Source: a virus
DNA length: 42,107 nucleotides
Direction: 5' to 3' (one strand)
Virus record (IMG/VR): IMGVR_UViG_3300002460_000068
The notes below the pieces were generated by a model. It was not told where the DNA came from. It saw nothing but the letters and a program-made list of their open reading frames with translations, and did no database searches. Positions 29,195-42,107 of this stretch are shown piece by piece; within the stretch, counting starts at the first letter, position 1, and every line of letters starts with the position of its first letter. Position numbers and translations under genes: made by a program.

Positions 29195-29209
29195 AATAAG
29201 GAGAAAAAA

Positions 29210-29560: not shown

Positions 29561-29627
29561 TTTAAAATCGAAAGCGCGTTTTAAAATCATTATATTTTTA
29601 AATATATAATAAAATAGGGGGAGTAAA

Positions 29628-29792: not shown

Positions 29793-29823
29793 AAAATGAA
29801 AATAACGGAAAAAAGGAGAAAGA

Positions 29824-30324: not shown

Positions 30325-30327
30325 TTT

Positions 30328-30450: not shown

Positions 30451-30592
30451 AATTTGATAACTTACAGCAAAAGCTAAATCGTCTTAAAGACAGCAATAGT
30501 TTTTTAAGAAATCAAATTTTACAAGCCAAAATTCAACATAAGAATTCTTTTGATTGTGATAAATTTTTAAAAAAGAGAATATCTAAAAGTTC

Positions 30593-30621
30593 TTGACACA
30601 AAAAAATAGGGATGGTATCAT
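30593..30621 (+). promoter_or_regulatory. Promoter P2 (TTGACA-17-TATCAT)
   Basis: TTGACA at 30593-30598, a 17-nt spacer, TATCAT at 30616-30621. It lies upstream of the replication module. Confidence 0.65.
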
Positions 30622-30685
30622 TTTGGCATGTTAAATAACGCGAGGCAAAAAGGACAAACCGATGATCAATTTATTTTTAATAAAT

Positions 30686-30717
30686 AGCCACGATTTCGAC
30701 CTTCGCGGCTTTTTTTA
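30686..30717 (+). terminator. Intrinsic terminator-like hairpin about 90 nt downstream of P2
   Basis: agccacga (30686-93) pairs with tcgcggct (30703-10) with one mismatch, followed by a T-run to 30716. A second hairpin (30720-27/30759-66) plus a U-rich tract follows, ahead of the ATG at 30786. Confidence 0.5.
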
Positions 30718-30785
30718 TTCCCTCTCGTTGCCTCGCGGCTAAAAAGGTTTGATCCTTTCGAGGGGGAATTTTATTTTTAAAAAAC

Positions 30786-31418
30786 ATGCCTCCTGGATTT
30801 ATAATTTTACAACGCAAAATTTTTGACTGGTATGGATACCAAAACCCTAAACGCTTACAATTATGGATAACACTGCTCCTGTTGGCTACGTTTAAAGATC
30901 ATCGCATAGTTTGGAACGGAAAACCTATTGATTTACACCGAGGAGAATTGATCACAGGCCGCAGAAAGCTCGTCGGGTATTGCAAAATGAGTGAAAGTTA
31001 TGTAGAAAAACTACTTTTAGAGTTCGAAATAGAGGGGCAAATAAGACAACAAAAAACAAACACAAGTCGTTTAATCACAATACTTAAATACAATGACTAT
31101 CAAAATAGTAACAACAATGAGGACAACGGAGAGGACAACGGAGAGGACAACAAAAAGACAACGGAGAGACACAACAGAACAATGTATAACAAAGAAAACA
31201 AGGAAAACAATATATCTATACCGCCAGCTTTAGAAGAAGTTTTGGCTTACAAACTCGAGATAAACGGGAATATAGAGCCAAGCCGCTTTATAGACTTTTA
31301 TGAGTCGAATGGCTGGATGGTAGGCAAAAACAAAATGAAATCGTGGAAAGCCGCATACCGCAGGGCATGTTCGGAATGGGATAAGGAGAAAAAATTTATA
31401 AAATTTGAGGGGATATGA
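30786..31418 (+). CDS. Replisome organizer / replication initiation protein (DnaD-like ends)
   Basis: 210 aa. N-terminal wHTH-like F.ILQRKIFDW....P..LQLWI.LL..A......W.G..I.L.RGELITG...L......SES.V...L..FE.EGQI.......SRLITILKYNDYQ. C-terminal FIDFYESNGWMVGKNKMKSWKAAYRRA, the typical DnaD/phage Rep tail. Internal iterons are present. Confidence 0.7.
   Translation: MPPGFIILQRKIFDWYGYQNPKRLQLWITLLLLATFKDHRIVWNGKPIDLHRGELITGRRKLVGYCKMSESYVEKLLLEFEIEGQIRQQKTNTSRLITILKYNDYQNSNNNEDNGEDNGEDNKKTTERHNRTMYNKENKENNISIPPALEEVLAYKLEINGNIEPSRFIDFYESNGWMVGKNKMKSWKAAYRRACSEWDKEKKFIKFEGI
31119..31170 (+). repeat. Iteron-like 12-bp tandem repeats (gaggacaacgga x about 3.5) inside the replisome-organizer gene
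   Basis: Copies lie at 31119, 31131, 31143 (partial) and about 31156. They encode NEDNGEDNGEDN and are followed by an A-rich tract with gaaaacaa x2 (31190-31210). Confidence 0.75.
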
Positions 31419-31433
31419 AAGGAATAAAGCGAT

Positions 31434-31607
31434 ATGGAAGGAAATAAATTTGGTGTATCTATTAGTTCTACCGGCATTCTTATTTTAATGCCCCCAACGA
31501 GAGAATTAACTAAAGCAGAGGCTTTGGAATTTTCCGCCTGGATTGTTGTGCTTACTGGTGGACGTGAAAAATTTTTACCAATTTTGGATGAAGTAGAGAG
31601 TTCATAA
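31434..31607 (+). CDS. Hypothetical small protein (57 aa)
   Basis: Not in the ORF track. MEGNKFGVSISSTGILILMPPTRELTKAEALEFSAWIVVLTGGREKFLPILDEVESS. Confidence 0.4.
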   Translation: MEGNKFGVSISSTGILILMPPTRELTKAEALEFSAWIVVLTGGREKFLPILDEVESS

Positions 31608-31611
31608 AGCG

Positions 31612-31644
31612 GTTCGCCCCTCGTTCAAGGGCGTGGATTGAAAC
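31612..31644 (+). CRISPR. Solitary type I-C-like CRISPR repeat (SRU-1)
   Basis: gttcgcccctcgttcaagggcgtggattgaaac. A GC-rich hairpin (CGCCC(C)U/AGGGCG) is followed by the GTGGATTGAAAC 3' handle. About 28/32 identical to the copy at 36434. It lies in the 47-nt intergenic space directly before the helicase gene, with no flanking second repeat. Confidence 0.75.
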
Positions 31645-31654
31645 TAAACGGAAT

Positions 31655-32731
31655 ATGAAAAACATTATAGATTTTTTTACCGAAGAACGTGCGGAACGGG
31701 AAGCAAATGACCCTAAAAAATTTTGCTGGTACGGGATCGCGGCCTTAGATGACGCGTTTTACGGTATTCGTAAAAACGATTTGATTGTTATTGGGGCGGA
31801 TTCGGGCAGTGGGAAAACTGAGATCGGTCTTATGATCGCCAGACATAATGCCATAGCGGGCCGAAAAGTGGCTTTATTTAATTTAGAAGGTGGTCATCGC
31901 GCCGCGATCCGCCGGTTAAAATGGCACGATATACGCAATGAATATTACGGTAACGGATGGACGGAAAACGGGTTTGTGGATATGGACTATCGAAAATGGT
32001 TAAACGGGGAACTTAAAGGGACAATTTTGGATAAGGTGGAAACAAAGGTTTTAGAGCAATGGCAGGAAAAATATAAGGACAATTTTTATGCCGCGGAAAT
32101 AAATAGAGGATTTGGAATAGAGCAGTTGCAAATAGAGTTAACGGATTTTCACAGTATGACGCCTACAATGCAAGGAGAAAAAATTATAAGAATGACTTCA
32201 TTCAACGTTGATTTAATTGTGATTGACCACCTGCAATATTTTGATTTACCCGACGGTGAAAAAGAAATAATCGGATTGACTAAAATTTTAAAATCAGTTA
32301 GAGACATTGTCCAATTTTATGACATTCCAGTTATTTTGATTTCACATCTGGTTAAAAAAATGAAAGACAGGGGATTGCCGGATCAAGCGGATTTTTATGG
32401 CACGAGTAATATTCCTAAAATGGCGACGGCGGCGATCACTATCTCGCCGGCGTTTGGACTAGCTAATTTATCGGCGGGGATTTATCCGACTTATTTTAGG
32501 ATTGTCAAAAGTCAAATTCCAAACGTAAAATCAAATTGCGGGATATTGATAAATTTTGATTCGTACACGGGAAATTACTCCAAGGATTATACGCTTCACT
32601 CTTTGGATAAATTCGGGATGCCCTCATCGGGGAATGCCATTGAAGAACAATTTTTACCGCACTGGGCGAAAAAAAAGCCGATAAAAATTGAACCCAAAGA
32701 AGTCCAAACCGAAATTGGGTGGCAAGAATGA
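31655..32731 (+). CDS. DnaB-C-terminal/RecA-like replicative helicase ATPase
   Basis: 358 aa. Walker A VIGADSGSGKTEIGL, Walker B DLIVIDHLQYF, and ISHL..K (arginine-finger region). It lacks the DnaB N-terminal domain. Confidence 0.7.
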   Translation: MKNIIDFFTEERAEREANDPKKFCWYGIAALDDAFYGIRKNDLIVIGADSGSGKTEIGLMIARHNAIAGRKVALFNLEGGHRAAIRRLKWHDIRNEYYGNGWTENGFVDMDYRKWLNGELKGTILDKVETKVLEQWQEKYKDNFYAAEINRGFGIEQLQIELTDFHSMTPTMQGEKIIRMTSFNVDLIVIDHLQYFDLPDGEKEIIGLTKILKSVRDIVQFYDIPVILISHLVKKMKDRGLPDQADFYGTSNIPKMATAAITISPAFGLANLSAGIYPTYFRIVKSQIPNVKSNCGILINFDSYTGNYSKDYTLHSLDKFGMPSSGNAIEEQFLPHWAKKKPIKIEPKEVQTEIGWQE

Positions 32732-32954
32732 ATGGGATAGAACATATAAAAAAAATATTCCAAGAGTTTTGTGTGAGATAGAGCGACGTAGTATAAATGC
32801 TGGTAGGATAAAACAGGGGACGCGGAGTTCAGTGAATAAAGAAAAACAAAAAGAGTTTAGCCGAATGTTGCGAGAGCAAGAAAATTTTGATAAAAAATAT
32901 CGATGGCGGGCTTATCCCGCATGGTCGGTTAAACCGAAAAAAAGGAAAAAATGA
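32688..32954 (+). CDS. Very basic hypothetical protein (uncertain)
   Basis: 88-aa ORF with only a TTG start and no RBS, overlapping the helicase 3' end by 44 nt. Confidence 0.25.
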   Translation: MNPKKSKPKLGGKNEWDRTYKKNIPRVLCEIERRSINAGRIKQGTRSSVNKEKQKEFSRMLREQENFDKKYRWRAYPAWSVKPKKRKK

Positions 32955-33421
32955 AAAATAAATTACGTGCTTTAATTGTAAAAAGTCGGCAAATGGGGAT
33001 TAATGAGAGAGCATTGTTTAACTGTCTTTTATTAGCTAAAAAAAAGGAAAGGAAGAGTGGGATGAAAAATAAATTACGTCCTTTAAGTTTTGACGCGGTA
33101 AAAAAGTTATTCGATAAAAACGGTTCTTTGCATTGTTGTGAAAAATCTGATGTTTTAGCAAAGCTGGTTTGTGATAATTTTGGCGTACCGCCTATCCCCG
33201 AGGTTCAAGAATTAAAAAACACGATTGAAAAAGTAAAATGGGAGCAATTTAGGAATCTTTTTTATTGTAAAAGTGTTAATTTACCAAAAATTTATGCTCA
33301 AAAAATCCATGATTTAATTTTGAATAAATTTAACTACGTTAGTACTGTCGGGGAATGGGAGCGGAAGATAAAGTCTCCCCCTGCTCAAGGGAATAAAAAA
33401 GTGAGCGAAAGAAAAAAATGA
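32951..33421 (+). CDS. Hypothetical protein with duplicated start module
   Basis: 156 aa. atgaaaaataaattacgtSctttaa occurs at 32951 and again in frame at 33062 (MKNKLRAL / MKNKLRPL). The functional start may be 33062. Confidence 0.45.
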   Translation: MKNKLRALIVKSRQMGINERALFNCLLLAKKKERKSGMKNKLRPLSFDAVKKLFDKNGSLHCCEKSDVLAKLVCDNFGVPPIPEVQELKNTIEKVKWEQFRNLFYCKSVNLPKIYAQKIHDLILNKFNYVSTVGEWERKIKSPPAQGNKKVSERKK

Positions 33422-33455
33422 CACGAAACAAGGAAACAGCTTACCGTACTCCCCT

Positions 33456-33623
33456 CTACAAAAGTAGACTAGTGCGGTGTCCCGATTGGGTTCTGATGAG
33501 TGTAAGGAGTACTGCCGGGTATATGGTTGGCGGTGAGATGAAAGTTTCTACGGTAAGGCATGCGGGAGCAATGCTCAGGCCTAGCGTTCCCATCCTGCTA
33601 TTGTTTCGATTTTTTATCCGCAT
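33456..33623 (-). ncRNA. Candidate minus-strand transcript from a consensus promoter (antisense RNA or leaderless 55-aa ORF)
   Basis: The A of an ATG at 33623 lies 7 nt after the -10 of the minus-strand promoter. The region is GC-rich with helices 33440-48/33549-57, 33455-59/33464-68 and 33564-69/33586-91. The 55-aa translation has no phage-like composition. Confidence 0.3.
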
Positions 33624-33629
33624 AAATTT

Positions 33630-33657
33630 ATTTTACAAAACATTTTTAAAATGTCAA
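33630..33657 (-). promoter_or_regulatory. Minus-strand promoter (TTGACA-16-TAAAAT) with a palindromic operator in the spacer
   Basis: Minus strand reads ttgaca-ttttaaaaatgttttg-taaaat. The spacer contains the 7+1+7 palindrome acatttt-t-aaaatgt (33640-33654). It points against the plus-strand early operon. Confidence 0.6.
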
Positions 33658-33669
33658 TATATTTTTTTA

Positions 33670-33817
33670 GGACTGGTAAGAAAAGTAAAAGGAGCAGTAA
33701 GTCCGCATACGGTGTGGTCTAGCACCGTTCTGCACCTGCCAGTTCCAATTTTAAAAGCTGATAAAGGGAGTTCTGGAAGGTTCTCCCCCGCCGGTGGGGA
33801 TTCCCGCCGGCCAGCTT
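33670..33817 (+). ncRNA. GC-rich structured element (hairpins plus three-way junction)
   Basis: Helices: ggact/agtcc (33670-74/33700-04) and acggtg/caccgt (33709-14/33723-28). The closing stem aagctg/cagctt (33755-60/33812-17) encloses gggag/ctccc (33766-70/33783-87) and ccggtggg-GAUU-cccgccgg (33791-33810). Confidence 0.35.
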
Positions 33818-33837
33818 AAATATTTTTAGAATTTTGC

Positions 33838-33866
33838 TTGACAGGACAGAACGCACATGATATACT
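33838..33866 (+). promoter_or_regulatory. Promoter P3 (TTGACA-17-TATACT)
   Basis: TTGACA at 33838-43, a 17-nt spacer, TATACT at 33861-66. It lies 26 nt upstream of the RHH gene RBS. Confidence 0.7.
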
Positions 33867-33891
33867 TGCTATATAAGGGAAAGGAGAAAAA

Positions 33892-34029
33892 ATGAAAAGA
33901 ATAATTTTTTGGATCGAAGATGAAATTAAAGAAAAAATCCGGCGAATAGTTTTTAATGAAAACACCACAATAAAAGCTCTCGTAACCGCATTGATTGTTG
34001 AGCGGATAAAAAGGAATGAAAAAAAATGA
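33892..34029 (+). CDS. Ribbon-helix-helix (CopG/Arc-like) small regulator (45 aa)
   Basis: Not in the ORF track. RBS AAGGAG. MKRIIFWIEDEIKEKIRRIVFNENTTIKALVTALIVERIKRNEKK has the beta-strand (IIFWIED) plus two-helix pattern of the RHH fold. ATGA overlap with the next gene. Confidence 0.6.
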   Translation: MKRIIFWIEDEIKEKIRRIVFNENTTIKALVTALIVERIKRNEKK

Positions 34030-34673
34030 ACACTGCCGAAGATTATCTGATGACGAAAAAAAAGTGGCGGGACTTGGAACGGGCAAATATCCGCAATATG
34101 CTAAAACTGGTATACCGGAACGCCCATGAAGCGCAGCCTAAATTTTTTGAATCGGCCTTGGGCGTTATTGTCCCGTTATTCCTTTGCGCCCTGATGGTTT
34201 TGTTTGCGATTGGGGCAAGGGGATGTGAGCCCGGGCCTGCCCAAGCAGGGGAAACAGGGGAGAGAAGCCTCTCCCAAGTGTCCAGAACAGGCACTTTGAT
34301 AAAGCAAAAACGAACGATCGGCGCTTTAAACGTAAGAAAGGGCGTTATCCCATATTCTGACCAAGAAATTGTGGCGGCTATTTATCAAACAGAGGGAGGC
34401 AAAAATGCTCAATTTCCATACGGAATACGATCAGTCCATTGTTCGGGCGAAAAAGATTGCCGCAAGATTTGTTTTAATACTGTCCGAAATAACCGTCAAA
34501 GATTTGCAAATTCTGAACGATTATCAAGCGAGGATTTTATTGGATTCCTTGCGAAACGTTACTGCCCTACTGGAGGAGCGTCGCTATCATCTGCAGAGCA
34601 GAAATTAAACGGAAATTGGGAACAAAACCTTCGTTATATTTTAGCCAAAAACAGAATGAGAGGTTGGAAATGA
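34026..34673 (+). CDS. Membrane-anchored protein with Cys-rich, possibly lysozyme/transglycosylase-like C-terminal domain
   Basis: 215 aa. TM LGVIVPLFLCALMVLFAIGA, a GC-rich linker, then IVAAIYQTEGGKNAQFPYGIRSV.C......C..IC.NTV.NN..RF......FI.FLAKRYCP.G......LNGNWEQN. The catalytic assignment is speculative. Confidence 0.5.
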   Translation: MNTAEDYLMTKKKWRDLERANIRNMLKLVYRNAHEAQPKFFESALGVIVPLFLCALMVLFAIGARGCEPGPAQAGETGERSLSQVSRTGTLIKQKRTIGALNVRKGVIPYSDQEIVAAIYQTEGGKNAQFPYGIRSVHCSGEKDCRKICFNTVRNNRQRFANSERLSSEDFIGFLAKRYCPTGGASLSSAEQKLNGNWEQNLRYILAKNRMRGWK

Positions 34674-34831
34674 GAGAAGAAAAATTGTTTTGTGACAGAT
34701 GTAAAAATGAAATAAAAACAAAAAATTTTTTGGAAAATTCAATTAAGCTTCAATTAGAAGGAAAAATATACGAAATATGCCTTTTGTGCAAAAAAGAAAT
34801 TCTTAATTTTATGGTGAAGGTTTATAAATAA
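34670..34831 (+). CDS. Small CxxC...CxxC zinc-ribbon-like protein
   Basis: ATG at 34670 overlaps the previous stop. MREEKLFCDRCKNEI....ICLLCKKEI. Confidence 0.5.
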   Translation: MREEKLFCDRCKNEIKTKNFLENSIKLQLEGKIYEICLLCKKEILNFMVKVYK

Positions 34832-34834
34832 AAA

Positions 34835-35056
34835 ATGACCGACTTCCAAAAATCTCTTAAGGCATATAAAAAATGTTTTAATTACAGGCGAGGCGGTTTG
34901 TTTCCGTCAAATAAATTACCCGCAGATATACTGGCCTATGTAAATTTTAAAATGGAGCGTCAAAATATTAAAGCCGTTGACTCACAAATGTTCGTTGGCT
35001 ACGGGCATAAATATTTAAAAAAAACAAAACAGGAATTAGCGAGGATAACCCGATGA
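34835..35056 (+). CDS. Early hypothetical protein
   Basis: 73-aa ORF, tightly packed. Confidence 0.5.
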   Translation: MTDFQKSLKAYKKCFNYRRGGLFPSNKLPADILAYVNFKMERQNIKAVDSQMFVGYGHKYLKKTKQELARITR

Positions 35057-35250
35057 AAAAAAGTGCTTTTATGGGATGGTTTTTAAAACAGTTCCCTGAC
35101 CCGTGTACAGAAATGGACGTACTTTCTCTTCAAAAAGAGTTTGATGATTTGCTGTATTCGCTGAAAATTACTAAAAGAAAATTAAAAGAAAAAAAACTTT
35201 GGATAATTAAAGAGGACGCGGCCTTGAAAGCGTGGATGGTTAAAAAATGA
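35053..35250 (+). CDS. Early hypothetical protein
   Basis: 65-aa ORF, ATGA overlap with the upstream gene. Confidence 0.5.
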   Translation: MKKSAFMGWFLKQFPDPCTEMDVLSLQKEFDDLLYSLKITKRKLKEKKLWIIKEDAALKAWMVKK

Positions 35251-35411
35251 TGAGACTGGTTATTCATTCCCTAACTTTTATTGTTCTGCGGTTGTTCGGC
35301 GTCGTGCAAGCGTTCAGGTTTAAGGGGTGGGCGCGTGGGGTAAAAAGCGGAAATATGTTTGAGCGGGAAATAACCGACGAGGATATTGATAATTATAGGA
35401 GAGGAATTTGA
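35247..35411 (+). CDS. Small hydrophobic-N-terminus protein (54 aa)
   Basis: Not in the ORF track. MMRLVIHSLTFIVLRLFGVVQAF.... Overlapping start and stop with both neighbours. Confidence 0.35.
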   Translation: MMRLVIHSLTFIVLRLFGVVQAFRFKGWARGVKSGNMFEREITDEDIDNYRRGI

Positions 35412-35599
35412 TGAAAAACATCGTAAAAAAATTGTCCTTAAAATATTTTGAACATACAGGTGAATCTCCCGAATTCGGATTTTGGTCGTGGTTAGCAGCG
35501 ATGGGGGTCGCAGAGAATGAAAAATCTTTAGAAAACTTATACAATGACCCAGAAATTTGGAATGACTTAAAAAGTGAATACGAAGAAAGGGATAAATAA
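35411..35599 (+). CDS. Early hypothetical protein
   Basis: ATG at 35411, in the frame of track ORF 35408..35599. Confidence 0.5.
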   Translation: MKNIVKKLSLKYFEHTGESPEFGFWSWLAAMGVAENEKSLENLYNDPEIWNDLKSEYEERDK

Positions 35600-35600
35600 A

Positions 35601-35876
35601 ATGTTAAACATAATTGATTACGTGCATCGTCTTTTTGGTTTTCCGATTGAGAATTCCGTAGCTATGGGAGACCCGCCTCCGAGAGAAGAGTGCGAAGTCT
35701 GCGGGGGGACAGGAAGAAGGCAAGGAACACGAAAAGAACTCTACGCTACTATACGCAAAAATGTTTATGGGAATCATTTATTGACCGACAAAGAAGCGGA
35801 AAAATATGCTAAAAAAGAAATTTTAGATTGGCGTGAAGATGGAAAGATTGTTTGTGAATGTCAGGATAATATTTAA
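35601..35876 (+). CDS. Early hypothetical protein with CxxCxGxG motif
   Basis: ATG at 35601. CEVCGGTGRR resembles the DnaJ-type zinc-finger repeat CxxCxGxG. It ends with CEC. Confidence 0.5.
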   Translation: MLNIIDYVHRLFGFPIENSVAMGDPPPREECEVCGGTGRRQGTRKELYATIRKNVYGNHLLTDKEAEKYAKKEILDWREDGKIVCECQDNI

Positions 35877-35901
35877 TAATTAAATAGAAATAAAGGAAAA
35901 A

Positions 35902-36315
35902 ATGTTTAGAAAAAAAGATGGTGAGATTGATGTAGTAAAAGTAACAATTGCGATAATGATTTCTTTTATTGTGTTTAGAATATTATTTATGTCAATTATG
36001 CCTCAATATACAGTTTGGGAACAAGGTTTAGCTGGGCAAGCCTAATTAGCAAAAGCTGATTACAGTAAAAAGGTTGCTGTTCAGGAGGCTCAAGCTAAAA
36101 AAGATTCTGCAGGTTTGTTAGCCGATGCGGAGGTACTTAGGGCTGAAGGTGTGGCTAAAGCAAATAAAATTATCGGAGAAAGTCTTAAAGAGAATGAACA
36201 ATATCTTCGATATTTATGGATTACGGATGTTGCAGGAAAAGATGTAAATAAAACAGTCGTCTATATTCCGACTGAAGCAAATATTCCTATTTTAGAAGCG
36301 ACTAGGTATAAATAA
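35902..36315 (+). pseudogene. SPFH/band-7-C-terminal-like membrane protein interrupted by an in-frame TAA
   Basis: ATG at 35902 (RBS AAAGGAAAA), a TM helix (VTIAIMISFIVFRILFMSIM), an in-frame TAA at 36043-36045, then LAKADYSKKVAVQEAQAKKDSAGLLADAEVLRAEGVAKANKIIGESLKENEQYLRYLWI. The distal part has no ATG/GTG start or RBS of its own. Confidence 0.55.
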
Positions 36316-36416
36316 AAGTGTGAGTGTCAAACAGAAATTTAAAATAAATTTTAATTACCGATTAAGTACAAAACAGTAATAAATAAGTAATTAAATTTTA
36401 GGTGAGGAGTGTAAAA

Positions 36417-36503
36417 ATGGATAATTTAGACGAGTCGCCCCTCGTGCAGGGGCGTGGATTGAAACATGCTGAAGCAGATGATCAAGGGGATTGTTTGCTA
36501 TGA
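36417..36503 (+). CDS. Mini-ORF (28 aa) containing the second CRISPR-like repeat
   Basis: Strong RBS GGTGAGGAG lies 7 nt upstream of the ATG at 36417. MDNLDESPLVQGRGLKHAEADDQGDCLL. Its TGA overlaps the ATG at 36500 of the Lar-like gene (ATGA). Confidence 0.35.
   Translation: MDNLDESPLVQGRGLKHAEADDQGDCLL
36434..36465 (+). CRISPR. Solitary type I-C-like CRISPR repeat (SRU-2)
   Basis: gtcgcccctcgtgcaggggcgtggattgaaac. A perfect 7-bp stem CGCCCCT/AGGGGCG with a 5-nt loop, then GTGGATTGAAAC. This is the canonical I-C repeat architecture, 32 nt. No intact second repeat is nearby. Confidence 0.8.
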
Positions 36504-37093
36504 AGGCAGAGAGGTGCGGAATGGAAAGTAAAGAACTTAAAAAATGTCCATTTTGCGGTAAGAAGCCTAAATTTTTTGAACAAGGGTTTGATTGCAATGG
36601 AAAAATTTTTTACCAAATAAGATGTACTGAAAGGAAATGTTTATTACCTTCAACAGGCAATTTTTCCTGTGAATTAGGAAAAAAAGAAGCTGTTAAAGTA
36701 TGGAACACCCGCGCCGAGCCGATGGGGTTGAGTACGTTGGATGAGAGAAAGATTATTGATGCCGTACAAAGATATTGTAGAAAAACTCATTATACGTTAG
36801 AAGCATATCACGAAAAATTTGGTGTATTGATTTGTTTTATACAAGATGTTTTAGTTAAAAACTTTGGTCAGCCCGCGATCCCTAGCGTAGAGGAAATTGA
36901 GACAGTAATTAAAAAACATTTAGGATTCGATAGAGTAAAAGTTACTGCTAGGAATCAAAAATTTGCACAACATGCAAAAACAAATGAAGATTTTTTAATA
37001 TGGACAATATTTGATAGTTTAGCCCAAGCCATCCACGAGGCGTTTGAGGAAAGGAGTTTAGATGAAAAAAAATTTATTGAAACTAAACCATAA
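36500..37093 (+). CDS. Lar-family-like restriction alleviation domain protein with C-terminal extension
   Basis: The N-terminus KKCPFCGKKP.......C.......IRC....C........EAVKVWNTR is the Lar signature. About 120 aa of unknown function follows. An alternative start is the ATG at 36521. Confidence 0.6.
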   Translation: MKAERCGMESKELKKCPFCGKKPKFFEQGFDCNGKIFYQIRCTERKCLLPSTGNFSCELGKKEAVKVWNTRAEPMGLSTLDERKIIDAVQRYCRKTHYTLEAYHEKFGVLICFIQDVLVKNFGQPAIPSVEEIETVIKKHLGFDRVKVTARNQKFAQHAKTNEDFLIWTIFDSLAQAIHEAFEERSLDEKKFIETKP

Positions 37094-37331
37094 ATATTCA
37101 GACGGGAAGGGGAATATCCGGTTGGTTATAGGTATCGGGTCGCAATACGTTCTTTATAATTCCCAATCGGCAACGGATTGCCTTAGATACCGTATAATCG
37201 CGAAAAAAAGAGGGCCTCATCTTTTAGGGTCAGAGCATAATTGCACTGTATCATCATTCTGCTTTTGGGCTAAAGAAGCATACCTTTTTAACTCTAACTT
37301 GGGGATATCTTGTTGGGTTAGATTTTGTTAG
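37062..37331 (+). CDS. Early hypothetical protein
   Basis: 89-aa ORF overlapping the previous gene by 32 nt. Confidence 0.4.
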   Translation: MKKNLLKLNHKYSDGKGNIRLVIGIGSQYVLYNSQSATDCLRYRIIAKKRGPHLLGSEHNCTVSSFCFWAKEAYLFNSNLGISCWVRFC

Positions 37332-37341
37332 AAAATTTAAT

Positions 37342-37551
37342 ATGAACCGCTACCACATAATTTCTAACGTCATAAAACTGATATTAAAACAATCTAATTT
37401 TAAAATTATTGCCCACCATTTTTTCCTAAACAGTAAAGCGACGATTATTTTTGAAGATGAGAATGGAGATGTATACGTTAATCAAACATGGAAGGTGAAA
37501 TCACAAGTCGAGGTTAGGGCAGTTGACAATAGAGTTGAAAAGTATTTTTAA
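37342..37551 (+). CDS. Early hypothetical protein
   Basis: 69-aa ORF. Confidence 0.4.
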   Translation: MNRYHIISNVIKLILKQSNFKIIAHHFFLNSKATIIFEDENGDVYVNQTWKVKSQVEVRAVDNRVEKYF

Positions 37552-37681
37552 AAATGGGTTGAGATGATATATCTTTTTAAAAAGGGAATTGTCCTAAAAA
37601 AAACATGGAAACATATTTGATATAAAATAATTTTTTTAGATAAAAGGATAAAAGATTTTTAAACTAGGAAGGAATTAAAAA

Positions 37682-37966
37682 TTGGGCGATACTGGCGAAG
37701 CATTTAAAGTATTTAATAAAATGAAGAGTGAGGAACGGTCAATTAAAGAACCTCATCGACGTGATTATGCTATTAAAAAATTAGATGCAATAGATGGTAT
37801 CCGTTGTCTTATGGGAATGGATTTAATTGAAATTTATATTGATAGGGTTCAAATAGACTTCTGGCCGTTCACCGGATGGTTTTGCGGTAGGAAGCCTATT
37901 GGCCAGGTTAAAGGTAGAGGAATCAATAATTTGGTTAAAGAAATTGAAAAGTTGAAAGGAGATTAA
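37682..37966 (+). CDS. Early hypothetical protein
   Basis: TTG start preceded by AGGAAGGA. 94 aa. Confidence 0.45.
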   Translation: MGDTGEAFKVFNKMKSEERSIKEPHRRDYAIKKLDAIDGIRCLMGMDLIEIYIDRVQIDFWPFTGWFCGRKPIGQVKGRGINNLVKEIEKLKGD

Positions 37967-37970
37967 TAAT

Positions 37971-38141
37971 ATGGGATTGCAAATTAAAATGGATAACTGG
38001 GATTATCAAACAGCGATAATAGGCGTAGAAGGATTATTGTTAAGAATTACAACGTGTCCAGACGGAAAAGGGGGCGCAATTTTAAAAGGAATTCCGAGTG
38101 GTAAAGAAATTGTTGATTTTATTTGGAATAAAATTAAATAA
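37971..38141 (+). CDS. Early hypothetical protein (56 aa)
   Basis: Not in the ORF track. RBS AAAGGAG. MGLQIKMDNWDYQTAIIGVEGLLLRITTCPDGKGGAILKGIPSGKEIVDFIWNKIK. Confidence 0.45.
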   Translation: MGLQIKMDNWDYQTAIIGVEGLLLRITTCPDGKGGAILKGIPSGKEIVDFIWNKIK

Positions 38142-38162
38142 AGGAAGGAAGGGAAGCGGGGA

Positions 38163-38915
38163 ATGAAAAAAAAACAAATGGTTAAAAAAGAACCAGTTGA
38201 AAAAAAATTATTTTTAAAATCGGATGAATCGCCCGCGGAAATAATACGGCTGGCTGTATTAGGAAAGGTTGATCTTGAAAAACTTGAAAAATTATTGGTG
38301 CTTCAAGAGCGATGGGACGCGAATCAAGCTAAAAAAGCATTTAGCGAATCGATGGTCACTGTTCAAAAAAACATCGTGCTTGTTGCAAAAACATTAACAA
38401 ATTCGCAAACTCATTCAAAATACGCTTCTCTCGGTAACATAATTTGTCAGACAAAAGAAGTTTATACCGAATACGGATTTTCAATATCTTTCTACGAAGG
38501 ACAGACAGAAAAATTAGAACATATCCGTATCTGTGCCGATGTTGTCCATCGCTTGGGGCATAAAGAAACGTATCATTTTGATGTTCCATTAGACGGAAAA
38601 GGAATTAAAGGAAATGCCAATATGACCTCAATTCATGCGAAAGCCTCATCTACATCATACGCCTGGAGGTATTTGATGTGTATGATTTGGAATATCCCGA
38701 CTTCTGACGATAACGATGGAAATCAGGTAGCGCAAGAAAAAATCAGCGAAGAAGAATTAAAAAAAATTAAAGAATTGCTGGTTGAAATCGGGGCGGAAGA
38801 AAAAAGATTTTTGCAATATATGTCAGTCGGTAAATTAGAGGATATATTAAAATCTGATTATCCAAAGGCGTTGGTTGCTATTGAAGGAAAAAGAAAAGTT
38901 GAGGTGGTGAATTGA
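38163..38915 (+). CDS. erf: ERF-family single-strand annealing protein
   Basis: 250 aa. ...SKYASLGNII..TKEVYTEYGFSISF........I.I.ADVVHRLGH.ETY.FDVP.D.........MTSIHAKASSTSYAWRYLMCMIWNIPTSDDNDGN matches the ERF pattern (kYAdL..i......l...Gl......H.sGh.......q..GSa.TYarRY.l...lGi..dDDDG). Confidence 0.8.
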   Translation: MKKKQMVKKEPVEKKLFLKSDESPAEIIRLAVLGKVDLEKLEKLLVLQERWDANQAKKAFSESMVTVQKNIVLVAKTLTNSQTHSKYASLGNIICQTKEVYTEYGFSISFYEGQTEKLEHIRICADVVHRLGHKETYHFDVPLDGKGIKGNANMTSIHAKASSTSYAWRYLMCMIWNIPTSDDNDGNQVAQEKISEEELKKIKELLVEIGAEEKRFLQYMSVGKLEDILKSDYPKALVAIEGKRKVEVVN

Positions 38916-39511
38916 AAATTATAAATTATGAGCAAGGCACACCAGAATGGATGGCGGCTAGATTAGGTATGCCGACAGCTTCAAATTTTGATAAAATAAT
39001 CACAACGACAGGAGAGCCCTCAAAACAAAAAGAAAAATATCTTTGGCAGTTAGCTGGTGAATGTGTAGCCGGTAAAGCTGAAGAAACGTATCAAAATGCT
39101 AATATGTTACGAGGCCAAGAAATGGAAAATGAAGCCAGAAATCTCTATCAATTATTTACTAATGAGGAAATTTCAAAAGTTGGGTTTTGTCTGGCCGATG
39201 GGGATTATAAATATGGAGCGAGTCCTGATAGCCTAGTGGGGAAGGAAGGCGGTCTTGAAATTAAATGCCCCCTTATCTCAACGCACGTTAAATATTTGCT
39301 TGGCGGGATATTTCCGATGGATTATTTTCAACAAATTCAAGGGAATCTTCTTGTTACTGGCCGAAAATGGTGGATATTTGAATCGTACTATCCAGCCATA
39401 AAACCTTTTATCATTAAAGTTGAACGTAATGAAAAATTTATTAAGGCATTAAAAATTGAGTTACAAATGTTTTGTTGTGAGTTAGAAGAAATTATTAAAA
39501 AAATAATTTAA
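38912..39511 (+). CDS. YqaJ-like (lambda-exonuclease-fold, PD-(D/E)xK) recombination exonuclease
   Basis: QGTPEWMAARLGMPTASNFDKI ... GQEMENEAR.LY ... GASPDSLV...GGLEIKCP is the classic YqaJ signature. Overlaps erf. Confidence 0.85.
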   Translation: MKIINYEQGTPEWMAARLGMPTASNFDKIITTTGEPSKQKEKYLWQLAGECVAGKAEETYQNANMLRGQEMENEARNLYQLFTNEEISKVGFCLADGDYKYGASPDSLVGKEGGLEIKCPLISTHVKYLLGGIFPMDYFQQIQGNLLVTGRKWWIFESYYPAIKPFIIKVERNEKFIKALKIELQMFCCELEEIIKKII

Positions 39512-39519
39512 GGAGAAAA

Positions 39520-40281
39520 ATGGAAAATCAATTACAAATTATTGTCAAGGAAAGTGGCCTTGAACAATCAAAGGCAAAATTCATTCTTGAGAATTTCCAA
39601 AATTATTTTGAGATTGCTGATGATTGGGCTAAAAAAGCGAGGGCTATTGTTGTAACTGATGAAAATCAAAAAGCAGAAATGCAAATGGCAAGAGCGGGAA
39701 GATTGTTTTTAAGGGAAAAACGAATTGCAGTAGAAGACGCAAGGAAGAATTTAAAAGAACAGGCTTTACGAGAAGGAAAAGCAATTGACGGCATTGCAAA
39801 TGTTCTTAAGGCATTGATTATTCCTATCGAGGAATATCTTGAAAAACAAGAAAAATTTGTTGAAATTAGAGAAGAGAACAAAAGAGAAGCTATGCGTATT
39901 GAAATTGAAAAACGTATTGAGGATGAACGAATTGCCAAAGAAAAAGCGGATGCCGAGGAACGAGAGAAAATACGACAGGAAAATGAAAGGCTAAAAAAAG
40001 AGGCCGAGGAGAAGGAAAAAGCATTGCAAGCTGAACGAAAAAAAGTTGAGGCTGAGAAGCAAGAAGCGGAACGTAAAGCCAAAGAATCGCAAGAAAAGTT
40101 ACGCAAAGAGGCCGAGGAGAAGGCTAAAAAAATCCGTAAAGAAAATGACGCTAAACTTTTAAAAGAAAAATTAGAGCGAGAAAGGATTGAATCTGAAAAA
40201 AAAGAGATTGAAGAAATGTTAAAAAATCAAGTTGAATGTCCAAAATGCCACCATAAATTCAAACCGCATAGAAAGGAATAA
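39520..40281 (+). CDS. K/E-rich coiled-coil protein with C-terminal CPKCHH zinc motif (DUF1351-like N-terminus)
   Basis: 253 aa. The N-terminal 110 aa resembles recombination-module accessory proteins. It has a long EKAKKEAEE-type low-complexity coil. Confidence 0.5.
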   Translation: MENQLQIIVKESGLEQSKAKFILENFQNYFEIADDWAKKARAIVVTDENQKAEMQMARAGRLFLREKRIAVEDARKNLKEQALREGKAIDGIANVLKALIIPIEEYLEKQEKFVEIREENKREAMRIEIEKRIEDERIAKEKADAEEREKIRQENERLKKEAEEKEKALQAERKKVEAEKQEAERKAKESQEKLRKEAEEKAKKIRKENDAKLLKEKLERERIESEKKEIEEMLKNQVECPKCHHKFKPHRKE

Positions 40282-40285
40282 AATC

Positions 40286-40666
40286 ATGGAAGAAACAACA
40301 AACACGTCAAAGAACCAAAGAATACCAGTTGGAGAATATATTTTTACAGTAGACGGGTCGCCTGAAAAACGAGAAGTCGCTGGGGGAAAAGGAAGTTTTA
40401 GGTTATGGAAATTAAAATATTTTAATTTTGACCGAGGAGTAGAGGTCATTGGAAGTGTATTATTTTTCGGAAATTCTCCAGGTTACCATGAAATTTTGAT
40501 GGCGGTTGGCGGGGTTGAAGTTTCCTCGGAAGATGTCAAATGGGATGATGAATCTGTTAATGGTAAGAAATTTTCCGCGACAATAACGCATGAAAAAAAT
40601 GAAAAGACTGGGCGGGTACAGGAGATTTTTTCTAATGTTAAAGCCCTTGCTAAAAATGAGTTTTAA
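40286..40666 (+). CDS. Hypothetical protein (possibly DUF669-like ssDNA-binding accessory)
   Basis: ATG at 40286 after AAGGAA. The P.GEY.F.V pattern lies near the N-terminus. Called from position after the recombination genes. Weak assignment. Confidence 0.4.
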   Translation: MEETTNTSKNQRIPVGEYIFTVDGSPEKREVAGGKGSFRLWKLKYFNFDRGVEVIGSVLFFGNSPGYHEILMAVGGVEVSSEDVKWDDESVNGKKFSATITHEKNEKTGRVQEIFSNVKALAKNEF

Positions 40667-40672
40667 ATTCCT

Positions 40673-40807
40673 ATGCCCTACGTCAACCAAGAAGAATACA
40701 TAAAAGAACGGCTCAAAAAAGCAAAAGAACGAGAGAAGAGAGAGGAATGGTTTAAGTCAATTAACAGTGGATTTATGACAGATGACCAAGGAGATAGCGG
40801 TGTATGA
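40673..40807 (+). CDS. Small charged protein (44 aa)
   Basis: Not in the ORF track. MPYVNQEEYIKERLKKAKEREKREEWFKSINSGFMTDDQGDSGV. ATGA overlap with the next gene. Confidence 0.35.
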   Translation: MPYVNQEEYIKERLKKAKEREKREEWFKSINSGFMTDDQGDSGV

Positions 40808-41268
40808 ACAATATGCGAAAAAAATTAAATTGTTATTCAAAAACATCTGTAAATTGGGCTAAAAGTCAAGCGCAGATAGGTAAACTACTTGACCAATTTG
40901 GAGTACAAGATGTTAGATTTACGTTCATGCAAAGCCAAAAAACTATCATTTGTGAATTTAATTATCCCAGCGACCTTGAAGGAAAACCTGTTAAAATTGG
41001 CGTTCGTATTATCTCAAAATTAAAAGAGTGTAAGGACGAAGAGCAAGAAAAAAATCGTATACACCGAATTTTATTTAACAAATTAAAATCCAGATTTTTA
41101 GAGATTCAAGAGAATACGCAGGAATTTGTTAAAGTCTTTATGGCCGATCTGATTGTATTTGACAAGCAGGGGGGCTCAAGCACAATGGGACAACTGATTA
41201 TTCCTCAATATAATAAAGGATTGATAACGGGGCAACAGGGAGATATTAAAATGTTACCTAATTTATGA
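40804..41268 (+). CDS. Hypothetical protein
   Basis: 154-aa ORF. Confidence 0.5.
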   Translation: MNNMRKKLNCYSKTSVNWAKSQAQIGKLLDQFGVQDVRFTFMQSQKTIICEFNYPSDLEGKPVKIGVRIISKLKECKDEEQEKNRIHRILFNKLKSRFLEIQENTQEFVKVFMADLIVFDKQGGSSTMGQLIIPQYNKGLITGQQGDIKMLPNL

Positions 41269-41334
41269 AGTTATATCTAAAATTAGATATAACTAGATAT
41301 AAACGGTAGAGGTTCTGTGAAAGAAGGATGTGTG

Positions 41335-41526
41335 ATGACTTTTTGTAAAGATTGTAAGGCAAAAATAATTTGGATGAAAACACGGGGCGAGTCAAAAATC
41401 CTTGTCGATTGGACGCAAAAGATCGTAGGAGACACAGTTTTTGAGCCTAAGCGGCATGTGCCACATTTTACAACTTGCCCAGAGCATGAAACTTTCAAAG
41501 AAAGAAAAACAAAAAAAATATTGTAA
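41335..41526 (+). CDS. Small Cys/His zinc-binding-like protein
   Basis: ATG at 41335 after AAGGA (the track start at 41317 is GTG). MTFCKDCKAKIIWMKT....HVPHFTTCPEH. Confidence 0.5.
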   Translation: MTFCKDCKAKIIWMKTRGESKILVDWTQKIVGDTVFEPKRHVPHFTTCPEHETFKERKTKKIL

Positions 41527-41761
41527 TCAAGGCAGAGTGGCGGAATCAAACGCAAAGGAAGCATGGCCTAACAAGGCTGGAATATCCCAAACTAGTAATG
41601 GGTAAAACCTTATCAAAGGATTGGACGCAAATGTGTGGCATAGATCAGTGAAACCACAATTTCCAATCGCCTTTAAATGCCAAACTGAATGGCTTGCAGG
41701 TACACGGTGAGGAAGCGCCTGCTAAATAAACGTTTTCGATCCAATCCTGCCTCTGCCTTGA
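41527..41761 (+). ncRNA. Candidate structured RNA, domain 1 (closed by an 11-bp terminal helix)
   Basis: tcaaggcagag (41527-37) pairs perfectly with ctctgccttga (41751-61). Nested helices are 41615-25/41662-74 (11 bp, 2-nt bulge), 41634-38/41654-58 and 41696-700/41718-22. Two look-alike hairpins are cccaAACUAGUAAuggg and gccaAACUGAAuggc. No credible ORF or RBS. Confidence 0.4.
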
Positions 41762-42014
41762 TATTTAATATCAGCCCTAAAAAATCGCTCAAGCGGGTTT
41801 GGACTAAAGATAAAAATCCTGATCGGGTTGACGTCCAGATGAAGGAGATGCGAAAATTAGGCTCTGAAAAGAGTACTGGGGCTGCTAAATGTAACGGTCG
41901 AGGCTGTGGTGTAATTAAGCATTATACGCATGAAACGCAATCGTAAGGTGCAGGTAACGCGTTTTGAACCCTGCCAGCCTCGGCTTAATTTAAAGGATGT
42001 TTGGAATGAGCAAA
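41762..42014 (+). ncRNA. Candidate structured RNA, domain 2
   Basis: Nested helices are 41772-79/41877-84, 41799-804/41833-38, 41899-906/41975-82 and 41950-54/41970-74. The only ORF (41689..41946) lacks an RBS and has an extremely basic, atypical composition. Confidence 0.35.
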
Positions 42015-42107
42015 CACATGAAATATTTTTTAATTTTTATTTGGTTTATCTTTTTCTTCCCACTTTATCTTTTAATGCTTCGTCTAGCTATCGAAGGGGC
42101 TGGAACA
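42015..42107. repeat. Terminal direct repeat, copy 2 (identical to 1..93)
   Basis: Exact 93/93 match with the window start. Confidence 0.95.

What the first reader, a model, noticed from the sequence alone, without database searches (positions are those of the whole stretch)
36417..36528. Second, canonical I-C repeat embedded in an RBS-preceded mini-ORF that is ATGA-coupled to a Lar-like anti-restriction gene
GTCGCCCCTCGTGCAGGGGCGTGGATTGAAAC (36434-36465) has a perfect 7-bp stem and 5-nt loop, is 32 nt long, and is about 28/32 identical to the copy at 31612. Unusually, it lies inside a 28-codon ORF with a strong RBS (GGTGAGGAG). The stop of that ORF overlaps the ATG of a Lar-signature protein. 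This places an anti-CRISPR-type RNA element and an anti-restriction protein in one translationally coupled unit, a compact anti-defence locus. A weak partial match to the repeat 3' handle (ggtgcggaatggaaag, 36513-36528) lies about 62 nt downstream. It could be a decayed second repeat, which would make this a relic mini-array.
Basis: partly seen in the sequence, partly recalled or inferred. Interest (0 to 1): 0.85.

Follow-up and report, generated by a model that had tools for sequence, protein, structure and literature searches.

The report
Catalogued solitary I-C CRISPR repeat in phage
A phage genome carries two lone copies of a bacterial type I-C CRISPR repeat, probably RNA decoys that jam the host's CRISPR defence, but these two copies are already listed in a published 2023 catalogue of such elements, so the finding is real and not new.

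Summary
GTCGCCCCTCGTGCAGGGGCGTGGATTGAAAC (36434-36465, +) is 32/32 identical to the consensus repeat of many CRISPR arrays. One of those arrays sits next to a complete type I-C cas operon. A second copy, 29/32 identical and with a weakened stem, lies at 31613-31644. Both are solitary and lie on the sense strand of the early genes of a ~42-kb circular metagenomic phage.

The best explanation is a solitary repeat unit acting as an RNA anti-CRISPR (Racr). The SRUFinder output of Camara-Wilpert et al. 2023 lists both copies at the same coordinates on IMGVR_UViG_3300002460_000068, so they are already catalogued, though untested.

The extra claims fare less well:
- The "decayed second repeat" is at chance level (p = 0.18). 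It is the Shine-Dalgarno site plus an alternative ATG (36521) of the Lar-domain gene.
- The pseudo-spacer has no target.
- The 28-codon ORF, its strong ribosome-binding site and the ATGA overlap exist, but they are only weak evidence for translation or coupling. No gene caller calls the ORF, and only ~100%-identical copies of this region exist, so conservation cannot be tested.
- The Lar domain passes Pfam's threshold but not NCBIfam's.

The only remaining novelty is speculative: possible interplay between translation and the decoy.

The parts
36434..36465 (+). SRU-B: solitary type I-C CRISPR repeat and Racr candidate. Stem 36436-36442 / 36448-36454, loop 36443-36447, 3' handle TGGATTGAAAC 36455-36465. 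By analogy with I-C pre-crRNA processing, Cas5c would be expected to cleave between 36454 and 36455 (inferred, not tested).
   Evidence: Exact match at these coordinates. Hairpin fold. 32/32 identity to the consensus repeat of arrays in GTDB MAGs and metagenomes. An I-C cas operon lies next to one such array. Listed at 36434-36465 in the SRUFinder output of PMC10651486.
31613..31644 (+). SRU-A: a second solitary I-C repeat, 29/32 identical to SRU-B. A C.A mismatch weakens the stem. It fills most of the 45-nt gap between a 57-aa ORF and the DnaB-like helicase gene (ATG 31655).
   Evidence: The canonical stem has pair probability <=0.04. This variant was not seen in any array of the GTDB scan, and an exact search of metagenome contigs found nothing. 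Listed at 31614-31644 in the SRUFinder output.
36400..36409 (+). Shine-Dalgarno-like sequence aggtgaggag, 7 nt upstream of ATG 36417.
   Evidence: -9.7 kcal/mol; stronger than 29 of 31 called early gene starts.
36417..36503 (+). 28-codon mini-ORF (MDNLDESPLVQGRGLKHAEADDQGDCLL) that reads through SRU-B. Translation is unproven.
   Evidence: Not called by the gene callers of the source assemblies. Pfam finds no family. About half of the strong-SD ATGs in the window are not gene starts.
36500..37093 (+). Lar-domain protein gene: 197 aa from ATG 36500, or 190 aa from the in-frame ATG 36521. The N-terminal Zn-ribbon Lar domain covers roughly aa 11-72. The C-terminal ~125 aa have no known function.
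   Evidence: PF14354, 31.5 bits. phrog_599. TIGR03655, 31.9 bits, below its 39.6 cut-off. Only one distant homologue found, P0002, at 43% identity over the C-terminal part. No PDB relative.
36509..36523 (+). gagaggtg SD plus the alternative start ATG 36521 of the Lar gene.

Best explanation
SRU-B, and its degenerate sister SRU-A, are solitary type I-C CRISPR repeat units carried by a ~42-kb circular metagenomic phage. They lie in crRNA-sense orientation inside the rightward early gene block, so they are most likely transcribed as part of polycistronic early mRNA.

The most likely function is an RNA anti-CRISPR (Racr). The hairpin plus the GGAUUGAAAC handle mimics a host pre-crRNA repeat. It would be bound, and probably cut, by the I-C processing subunit Cas5c, and would seed incomplete, guide-less Cas assemblies. 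That would titrate Cascade subunits away from phage-targeting crRNAs.

Shown here: repeat identity, I-C type, solitariness, orientation, phage context, and prior cataloguing. Inferred: transcription, Cas5c binding and cleavage, and inhibition of interference.

The SD-led 28-codon ORF and its ATGA overlap with the Lar-domain gene are real sequence features. Whether they have any function, for example as a translated leader coupled to Lar, is undecided.
For: - 32/32 identity to array repeats, with none expected by chance.
- A full I-C cas operon lies next to an array with this repeat, in the same orientation.
- There is no second repeat within +/-150 nt of either copy.
- The window is a circular phage genome with portal, capsid, terminase, ERF/YqaJ and DnaB-like genes.
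- Both copies are on the coding strand of the early genes.
- Both copies appear at the same coordinates in the filtered SRUFinder output of Camara-Wilpert et al. 2023.
- That paper shows an I-C SRU (RacrIC1), co-transcribed 11 nt downstream of acrIC5, restoring plaquing on an I-C host.
- The same exact repeat occurs as a solitary copy in at least four other unrelated contig families, which fits repeated capture by mobile elements.
- The hairpin is predicted to form (P > 0.8) while the nascent transcript ends before 36466.
Against: - No functional test exists for this element.
- The host is unknown, so a cognate I-C system in the host is not shown.
- None of about 800 spacers from arrays with this repeat matches the phage.
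- No sigma-70-like promoter lies within 250 nt upstream. The nearest strong one is at 33838-33866.
- At predicted equilibrium, the repeat hairpin in its mRNA context loses by 5.8 kcal/mol to pairings with the two flanking SD sequences.
- Ribosomes translating the mini-ORF would unwind the hairpin.
- SRU-A has a weakened stem, and stem mutations abolished RacrIF1 activity in the published work.
- No acr or aca gene was recognised nearby.
- Conservation cannot be assessed, because only ~100%-identical copies of this phage were found.
Confidence: 0.6

Rival explanations
1. A passive remnant. The repeats are scars of past recombination between the phage and a host CRISPR array, or of a lost phage-borne array, and now have no function. 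The SD-led ORF is incidental.
For: SRU-A is degenerate, with 3 substitutions, one of which breaks the stem. No promoter lies nearby. There are no relatives in which to see selection. The only distant relative of the Lar gene (L025) has no repeat upstream.
Against: SRU-B is 32/32 identical to the functional consensus. A decaying relic would rarely stay perfect in a 38% GC genome. Both copies sit in sense orientation in transcribed intergenic gaps. Published SRUs of the same kind are active.
Confidence: 0.2
2. A translated leader or regulatory device. The mini-ORF is really translated and coupled through ATGA to the Lar-domain gene. The repeat hairpin and its pairing with the two SDs would tune Lar expression, possibly in response to Cas5c.
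For: The SD is strong, -9.7 kcal/mol, top 2%. 4-nt ATGA overlaps are used by six called early gene pairs in this phage. The predicted alternative fold sequesters SD 36401-36405 and SD 36511-36514 with the C-rich arm of the repeat. The 131-nt region has a fold z-score of -2.9.
Against: About half of the strong-SD ATGs in the window are not gene starts. 58% of gene starts read ATGA anyway. The Lar gene has its own SD and ATG at 36521. The central part of the peptide (residues ~7-16, SPLVQGRGLK) is dictated by the repeat, and two of the repeat's three frames are open. Any SD will pair with this repeat's CCCCUC arm by composition alone. Other solitary copies of the repeat lack an upstream SD+ATG. 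The ORF is not called by gene callers.
Confidence: 0.1
3. A relic or working mini-array, or a crRNA-like regulator (Cracr type). The repeat plus the ~34 nt downstream would make a guide that targets a competitor element or a host cas promoter.
For: Viral mini-arrays and crRNA-like repressors do exist (bioRxiv 10.1101/2024.10.29.618823). A genuine two-repeat array with a degenerate terminal repeat was seen in a MAG (L011).
Against: There is no second repeat. Alignment p = 0.18, and no stem-loop remnant is present, whereas L011's terminal repeat keeps its stem. The pseudo-spacer 36466-36499 has no match in IMG/VR even with every sixth base free, only chance-level hits in INPHARED and PLSDB, and nothing in the cas-adjacent loci fetched here. 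The stretch in question is the SD and ATG of the Lar gene.
Confidence: 0.04
4. A recombination or integration site. The 32-nt repeats would give homology for insertion of the phage into host I-C arrays, or for array rearrangement.
For: Repeat-like sequences that mediate viral integration into arrays are mentioned as an alternative role in PMC10651486. No integrase was recognised in the ORFs tested.
Against: None of roughly 80 array-bearing loci contains any sequence from the window besides the repeat. All the arrays show regular ~66-nt periodicity.
Confidence: 0.04

Closest known systems
RacrIC1 (type I-C RNA anti-CRISPR, Bifidobacterium pseudocatenulatum prophage; Camara-Wilpert et al., Nature 2023, PMC10651486)
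   Same: A solitary type I-C repeat on a phage, in sense orientation, embedded in an mRNA next to a protein-coding counter-defence gene rather than expressed as a stand-alone sRNA. It has the same hairpin plus GGATTGAAA(C/T) handle architecture.
   Different: RacrIC1 lies 11 nt downstream of an acrIC5 homologue and was shown to work. Here the repeat lies upstream of a Lar-domain gene, inside a possible 28-codon ORF, with no recognised Acr nearby. Nothing has been tested. This phage carries two dispersed copies.
Catalogued SRUs in the SRUFinder output (Supplementary Data of PMC10651486) and the viral SRUs first noted by Faure et al. 2019 (cited there as ref. 4)
   Same: These are the same objects. 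IMGVR_UViG_3300002460_000068 is listed with I-C SRUs at 31614-31644 and 36434-36465, with identical sequences. Other contigs with two dispersed SRUs are in the same table.
   Different: The catalogue gives only coordinates, subtype and scores. It does not describe the mini-ORF, the flanking SDs or the Lar-domain neighbour.
Viral mini-arrays and crRNA-like regulators (Cracr; bioRxiv 10.1101/2024.10.29.618823)
   Same: Phage-borne CRISPR-repeat-derived RNA that subverts host Cas proteins.
   Different: Those need repeat-spacer-(degenerate) repeat units and a partially matching target. Neither is present here.
Lar / RalR family (Pfam PF14354; Rac prophage restriction alleviation protein)
   Same: An N-terminal CPFCG...C Zn-ribbon domain that matches PF14354 above threshold, and phrog_599 'Lar-like restriction alleviation protein'.
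   Different: The protein is 197 aa with an extra ~125-aa C-terminal domain of unknown function. It scores below the NCBIfam TIGR03655 cut-off. Anti-restriction activity is an annotation carried by the family name, not something tested here.

Membership tests
Type I-C CRISPR repeat | About 32-nt unit ending in the conserved 3' handle GGATTGAAAC/T, preceded by a G+C-rich hairpin | tested here: met
   SRU-B has a 7-bp stem, a 5-nt loop and an 11-nt tail TGGATTGAAAC. SRU-A keeps the handle, but its stem has a C.A mismatch and a canonical pairing probability <=0.04.
Type I-C CRISPR repeat | Same sequence used as the repeat of arrays that adjoin a type I-C cas operon | tested here: met
   The exact 32-mer is the consensus repeat of arrays with ~66-nt period in 19 GTDB loci and 60 metagenome loci. 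The L017 array is preceded by cas3, cas5c, cas8c, cas7/Csd2, cas4, cas1c and cas2.
Type I-C CRISPR repeat | Match to a curated Rfam CRISPR-DR model at its gathering score | tested here: not met
   The best match is CRISPR-DR9, 24.7 bits against a gathering score of 45, E = 0.0011, and nothing reaches a gathering score. The Rfam DR models cover few repeat clusters, so this does not weigh against the direct identity to array repeats.
Solitary repeat unit / Racr candidate (SRUFinder definition) | At least 90% identity to a known repeat, located on a virus or plasmid, outside confidently called ORFs | tested here: met
   100% (B) and 93.5% (A) identity to repeat I-C:3813 in the published SRUFinder output for this contig. 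Phage genes surround both copies. The mini-ORF is not called by gene callers.
Solitary repeat unit / Racr candidate (SRUFinder definition) | No full or partial second repeat within about 100 bp (truly solitary) | tested here: met
   The best flank alignments are no better than shuffles: p = 0.18, 0.74, 0.84 and 0.16 for the four flanks.
Solitary repeat unit / Racr candidate (SRUFinder definition) | Not associated with cas genes | tested here: met
   No Cas family appears among the Pfam, PHROG or NCBIfam hits for the window ORFs examined, nor in the precomputed Pfam list for 28163-42107 and 1-6901. The remaining ORFs are structural-module genes and were not all scanned.
Functional Racr | Predicted promoter within 250 bp upstream (the criterion used to choose candidates for testing) | tested here: not met
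   No sigma-70-like site scoring at least 9/12 lies in 36180-36433. The nearest 11/12 site on the + strand is 33838-33866. RacrIC1 itself is expressed from an upstream operon promoter, so this is not disqualifying.
Functional Racr | Host encodes the cognate CRISPR-Cas subtype with a matching repeat | not testable with these tools
   The host is unknown. The repeat occurs in MAGs of many phyla, and no spacer links any of them to this phage.
Functional Racr | RNA is bound or processed by the Cas endoribonuclease and relieves CRISPR interference | not testable with these tools
   This needs experiments. See the decisive next steps.
Phage mini-array / crRNA-like regulator | A second (possibly degenerate) repeat about one spacer length away | tested here: not met
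   Contrast the preserved stem in the terminal repeat of L011.
Phage mini-array / crRNA-like regulator | Spacer matching a mobile element or a cas promoter | tested here: not met
   No match in IMG/VR. Only chance-level hits in INPHARED and PLSDB, E >= 0.6. Nothing in the fetched loci. The host's cas promoter was not available.
Lar restriction-alleviation family | Match to the family model above its curated threshold | tested here: inconclusive
   Pfam PF14354 scores 31.5 against 28.6, which passes. NCBIfam TIGR03655 scores 31.9 against 39.6, which fails.
Lar restriction-alleviation family | Alleviates type I restriction | not testable with these tools
Translationally coupled upstream ORF | SD at proper spacing, start codon, and a stop overlapping the downstream start | tested here: met
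   SD of -9.7 kcal/mol, 7 nt from ATG 36417, and ATGA at 36500-36503. These are sequence features only.
Translationally coupled upstream ORF | Conservation of the ORF, or coding signal, in relatives | not testable with these tools
   Only ~100%-identical copies exist (L021-L024). Relatives found through ERF, helicase, SPFH and Lar genes do not share this region.

The most novel reading that the evidence does not exclude
SRU-B could be a dual-use element: a Racr decoy that also lies inside a translated leader ORF of the Lar-domain gene. The repeat's C-rich arm can pair with the SD of the leader (36401-36405) and with the SD of the Lar gene (36511-14). Hairpin formation, Cas5c binding or cleavage, and ribosome transit would then be mutually exclusive states. 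Together they would make a Cas5c-sensing RNA switch linking anti-CRISPR RNA activity to expression of an anti-restriction-type protein.
Probability: 0.06. Interest if true: 0.7.

Novelty: already known. Interest (0 to 1): 0.22.

Why it matters
If active, the element adds one more untested type I-C Racr candidate. It is unusual in being 100% identical to a repeat shared by I-C systems across many phyla, so it could serve as a broad-range I-C inhibitor. The kind of element, its I-C subtype, its mRNA-embedded expression, and even this exact locus are already published, so it changes nothing conceptually. The open point with some value is whether a Racr can function while lying inside a translated leader next to an anti-restriction-type gene.

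Tried and rejected
- **Rfam.** The gathering-threshold scan of the whole window found nothing. Only a sub-threshold CRISPR-DR9 hit appeared.
- **Second repeat.** Gapped and ungapped tests on all four flanks were at chance level.
- **Pseudo-spacer targets.** IMG/VR (with every sixth base free), INPHARED and PLSDB gave nothing meaningful.
- **Host link by spacers.** 241 spacers from GTDB arrays and 567 unique spacers from metagenome arrays with this repeat were tested. There was no protospacer in the window. The best hit was a 17-nt run that diverges afterwards.
- **Conservation in relatives.**
  - The Lar-domain protein has a single distant homologue, with no repeat upstream.
  - ERF relatives (13 loci), a helicase relative and SPFH relatives (3 loci) share only those genes and carry no I-C-like repeat.
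  - INPHARED holds no similar phage.
- **SRU-A variant.** No exact match in metagenome contigs, and it was absent from the GTDB arrays.
- **Repeat inserted into an ancestral Lar N-terminus.** Rejected. Deleting 32 nt restores the frame arithmetically, but the Lar frame is closed by TGA at 36470 and 36479 (read).
- **Stop-codon recoding.** This was prompted by an in-frame TAA in the neighbouring SPFH gene. It is rejected, because TAA is the commonest terminator and the long late genes are intact under table 11.
- **Acr or Aca genes nearby.** None was recognised.
- **Sample origin.** The sample identifiers were not found in the literature library.
Full report
**1. What is in the sequence**

The 32-mer GTCGCCCCTCGTGCAGGGGCGTGGATTGAAAC sits at 36434-36465 on the + strand. 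Allowing 3 mismatches, the only other copy in the window is TTCGCCCCTCGTTCAAGGGCGTGGATTGAAAC at 31613-31644 (+), which is 29/32 identical. Shuffled sequence gives no such matches.

On its own, copy B folds into a 7-bp stem with a 5-nt loop and an 11-nt single-stranded tail, at -12.9 kcal/mol. Copy A has a G-to-A change that creates a C.A mismatch, and its canonical stem has a pairing probability of 0.04 or less.

Other features at the locus:
- ATG 36417 is preceded by aggtgaggag at 36400-36409.
- It opens a 28-codon frame (MDNLDESPLVQGRGLKHAEADDQGDCLL).
- The TGA of that frame (36501-36503) overlaps an ATG at 36500-36502.

The downstream ORF, 36500-37093, matches Pfam Lar_restr_allev at 31.5 bits (cut-off 28.6; residues 11-72) and phrog_599. 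It falls below the NCBIfam TIGR03655 cut-off, at 31.9 against 39.6 bits.

**2. The repeat is a genuine type I-C repeat**

A scan of one genome per GTDB species found the exact copy-B sequence, or the one-base GTACAG loop variant, as the consensus repeat of arrays with ~66-nt periodicity. These arrays occur in MAGs labelled Deltaproteobacteria, Syntrophales, Thermoanaerobaculia, Elusimicrobia, Peptococcales, Halanaerobiales, Nitrospira and others. A metagenome scan added 60 more loci.

In locus L017 the array is preceded, in the same orientation, by cas3, cas5c, cas8c (Csd1), cas7 (Csd2), cas4, cas1c and cas2. So the + strand of the window is the crRNA-sense strand, which is also the coding strand of the surrounding genes.

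Rfam gives only a sub-threshold CRISPR-DR9 hit, at 24.7 against 45 bits. I attribute that to the limited repeat coverage of the Rfam models.

**3. Genomic setting**

The window is a circular assembly with a 93-nt terminal overlap and a unit length of about 42.0 kb. GC content is 37.7%.

- The leftward block carries late genes: SU10-type portal, capsid, terminase and tail genes.
- The rightward block carries early genes: a DnaD-like loader, a DnaB-like helicase, ERF, a YqaJ exonuclease and two Lar-domain genes.

Contigs that are 99.97-100% identical occur in four other samples. INPHARED holds no close phage. The phage's genes use Shine-Dalgarno sites, with a mean of -6.7 kcal/mol at called starts against -2.1 at all ATGs.

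Copy A nearly fills the 45-nt gap between a 57-aa ORF and the helicase gene. Copy B follows a ~100-nt A+T-rich spacer downstream of a split SPFH-like gene.

No sigma-70-like promoter lies within 250 nt upstream of copy B. Strong candidates on the + strand are at 27581, 30593 and 33838, and there are no terminators nearby. Both repeats are therefore most likely transcribed within long early mRNAs.

**4. Solitary repeat or mini-array**

The proposed decayed repeat at 36513-36528 does not stand up:
- Its alignment score is 16 against a shuffle mean of 13.3 (p = 0.18).
- The best ungapped identity near the expected register is 14/32.
- None of the four flanks of the two copies beats shuffles.

That stretch is instead gagaggtg plus ATG 36521, a well-spaced SD and an in-frame alternative start for the Lar-domain gene (MESKELKKCPFCG...). 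Its SD energy, -7.8 kcal/mol, matches that of ATG 36500, -7.6 kcal/mol.

A real short array seen in a MAG (L011) shows what a degenerate terminal repeat looks like: the stem-loop is kept. Nothing comparable is present here.

The 34 nt after copy B have no protospacer in IMG/VR, even with every sixth base free. In INPHARED and PLSDB they give only chance-level hits. The fetched loci also hold no match. The mini-array reading is rejected.

**5. Already catalogued**

Camara-Wilpert et al. (Nature 2023, PMC10651486) showed that viral solitary repeat units act as RNA anti-CRISPRs (Racrs). This includes a type I-C one, RacrIC1, which lies 11 nt downstream of an acrIC5 homologue and is expressed on the same bicistronic RNA.

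Their supplementary file 3 is the filtered SRUFinder output. It lists IMGVR_UViG_3300002460_000068 (C687J35021_10000237) with two I-C SRUs:
- 31614-31644, TCGCCCCTCGTTCAAGGGCGTGGATTGAAAC, 93.5% identity to repeat I-C:3813.
- 36434-36465, GTCGCCCCTCGTGCAGGGGCGTGGATTGAAAC, 100% identity.

Coordinates and sequences are the same as in the window, so the window is that contig and both repeats are published Racr candidates. A sister contig (..._000069) carries the same pair reverse-complemented. The solitary copy I found in IMG/VR (L001) is listed as well. The table also contains other viral contigs with two dispersed SRUs.

**6. The mini-ORF and the claimed coupling**

In favour of real translation:
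- The SD is among the strongest 2% in the window.
- 4-nt ATGA overlaps join six called early gene pairs in this phage.

Against, or neutral:
- Only about half of the 34 ATGs with an SD of -9 kcal/mol or stronger are starts of substantial ORFs.
- A third of all ATGs open 28 codons or more.
- 18 of 31 gene starts read ATGA regardless.
- Two of the repeat's three frames are open.
- The central part of the peptide (residues ~7-16, SPLVQGRGLK) is dictated by the repeat.
- The Lar gene has its own SD and ATG at 36521.
- The gene callers behind the public assemblies do not call the ORF.
- Four other unrelated contig families with a solitary copy of this exact repeat show no SD+ATG immediately upstream.

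Excising the repeat would not fuse the mini-ORF to Lar, because TGA codons at 36470 and 36479 close the Lar frame.

Beyond the ~100%-identical copies, the only Lar-gene relative is 43% identical over the C-terminal part only, and it has no repeat upstream. Relatives reached through ERF, the helicase and the SPFH gene share only those genes.

**7. RNA folding**

In isolation, or within the ORF alone, the repeat hairpin forms with a probability of about 0.95.

When the flanking SDs are included, the predicted equilibrium fold instead makes these pairings:
- GGUGA (36401-36405) with UCGCC (36435-36439).
- CCUC (36440-36443) with GAGG (36511-36514).
- GGCGUG (36451-36456) with CAUGCU (36465-36470).

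This fold is 5.8 kcal/mol better than the hairpin-containing fold. While the transcript ends before 36466, the hairpin still dominates (P = 0.54-0.97, depending on the assumed 5' end), so co-transcriptional capture by Cas5c remains plausible.

Because the repeat's 5' arm is anti-SD-like by composition, this pairing needs no selection to arise. I record it as an observation, and it forms the basis of the low-probability novel reading.

**8. Mechanism and verdict**

The most likely mechanism is as follows. The repeats are transcribed in early mRNA and mimic host pre-crRNA repeats. They would engage Cas5c, the I-C processing subunit (Nam 2012 and Garside 2012, as cited in PMC10651486), and divert Cascade subunits into guide-less complexes, as shown for RacrIF1 and as implied by the activity of RacrIC1.

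- **Shown here:** repeat identity, subtype, solitariness, orientation and phage context.
- **Inferred:** expression, Cas5c engagement and inhibition of interference.
- **Unknown:** the host. About 800 spacers from arrays with this repeat do not match the phage.

However, both the class and this very locus are already published. The relic mini-array is refuted, and the "translationally coupled anti-defence unit" remains an unproven embellishment. Interest is low.

Noticed in passing
window 35902-36315 (+): A 138-aa SPFH/HflC-like phage gene (phrog_11227) is interrupted by an in-frame TAA at 36043-36045. The family has more than 3,000 relatives, the best at 75% identity over the full length. All four metagenomic copies of the phage carry the same stop. 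There is no sign of stop-codon recoding, so this is a nonsense-split gene or a pseudogene.
   Followed up: partly
window 29628-29735 and 30328-30435 (+): A 108-nt direct repeat, 97/108 identical, that encodes the N-termini (MKIILDL.E.ELKRIIFFLEDGLETFETVDQDEMDD) of two small paralogous early ORFs 700 nt apart.
   Followed up: partly
window 401-604 (+): A second, 67-aa Lar-domain gene: PF14354 in the precomputed annotation, and TIGR03655 at 25.7 bits, below its cut-off. The phage therefore carries two Lar-type Zn-ribbon proteins.
   Followed up: partly
window 2564-2737 (-): A phage-encoded homologue of ribosomal protein S21 (PF01165), 57 aa, between the tail/lysis region and the small leftward ORFs.
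   Followed up: no
window 1-93 and 42015-42107: A 93-nt identical terminal overlap. The contig is a circular or terminally redundant assembly with a unit length of about 42,014 bp. Other samples hold circular permutations of 42,155 bp.
   Followed up: yes
window 36400-36530 (+): The predicted equilibrium RNA fold pairs the C-rich 5' arm of repeat B with both flanking Shine-Dalgarno sequences, and is 5.8 kcal/mol better than the fold containing the repeat hairpin. An 11-bp hairpin (36473-36483 / 36489-36499) ends exactly at ATG 36500. This may be a compositional coincidence.
   Followed up: partly
L001 7079-7110; L052 (- strand) 5010-5041; L085 841-872; L066 788-819, with the same locus in L072 and L077: The same I-C repeat occurs as a solitary unit in at least four other, mutually unrelated contig families. 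It is exact in L052, L085 and L066/L072/L077, and is the one-base GTACAG loop variant in L001. Only L001 is a known viral contig, and it is also in the published SRU catalogue.
   Followed up: partly
L003-L019 and L043-L102: One identical 32-nt I-C repeat is shared by arrays in MAGs assigned to many phyla (Desulfobacterota-type, Elusimicrobia, Acidobacteria-type, Bacillota, Nitrospira and a Gracilibacteria bin). This suggests wide horizontal spread of one I-C lineage, or some mis-binning. As a result the repeat cannot identify the phage's host.
   Followed up: no
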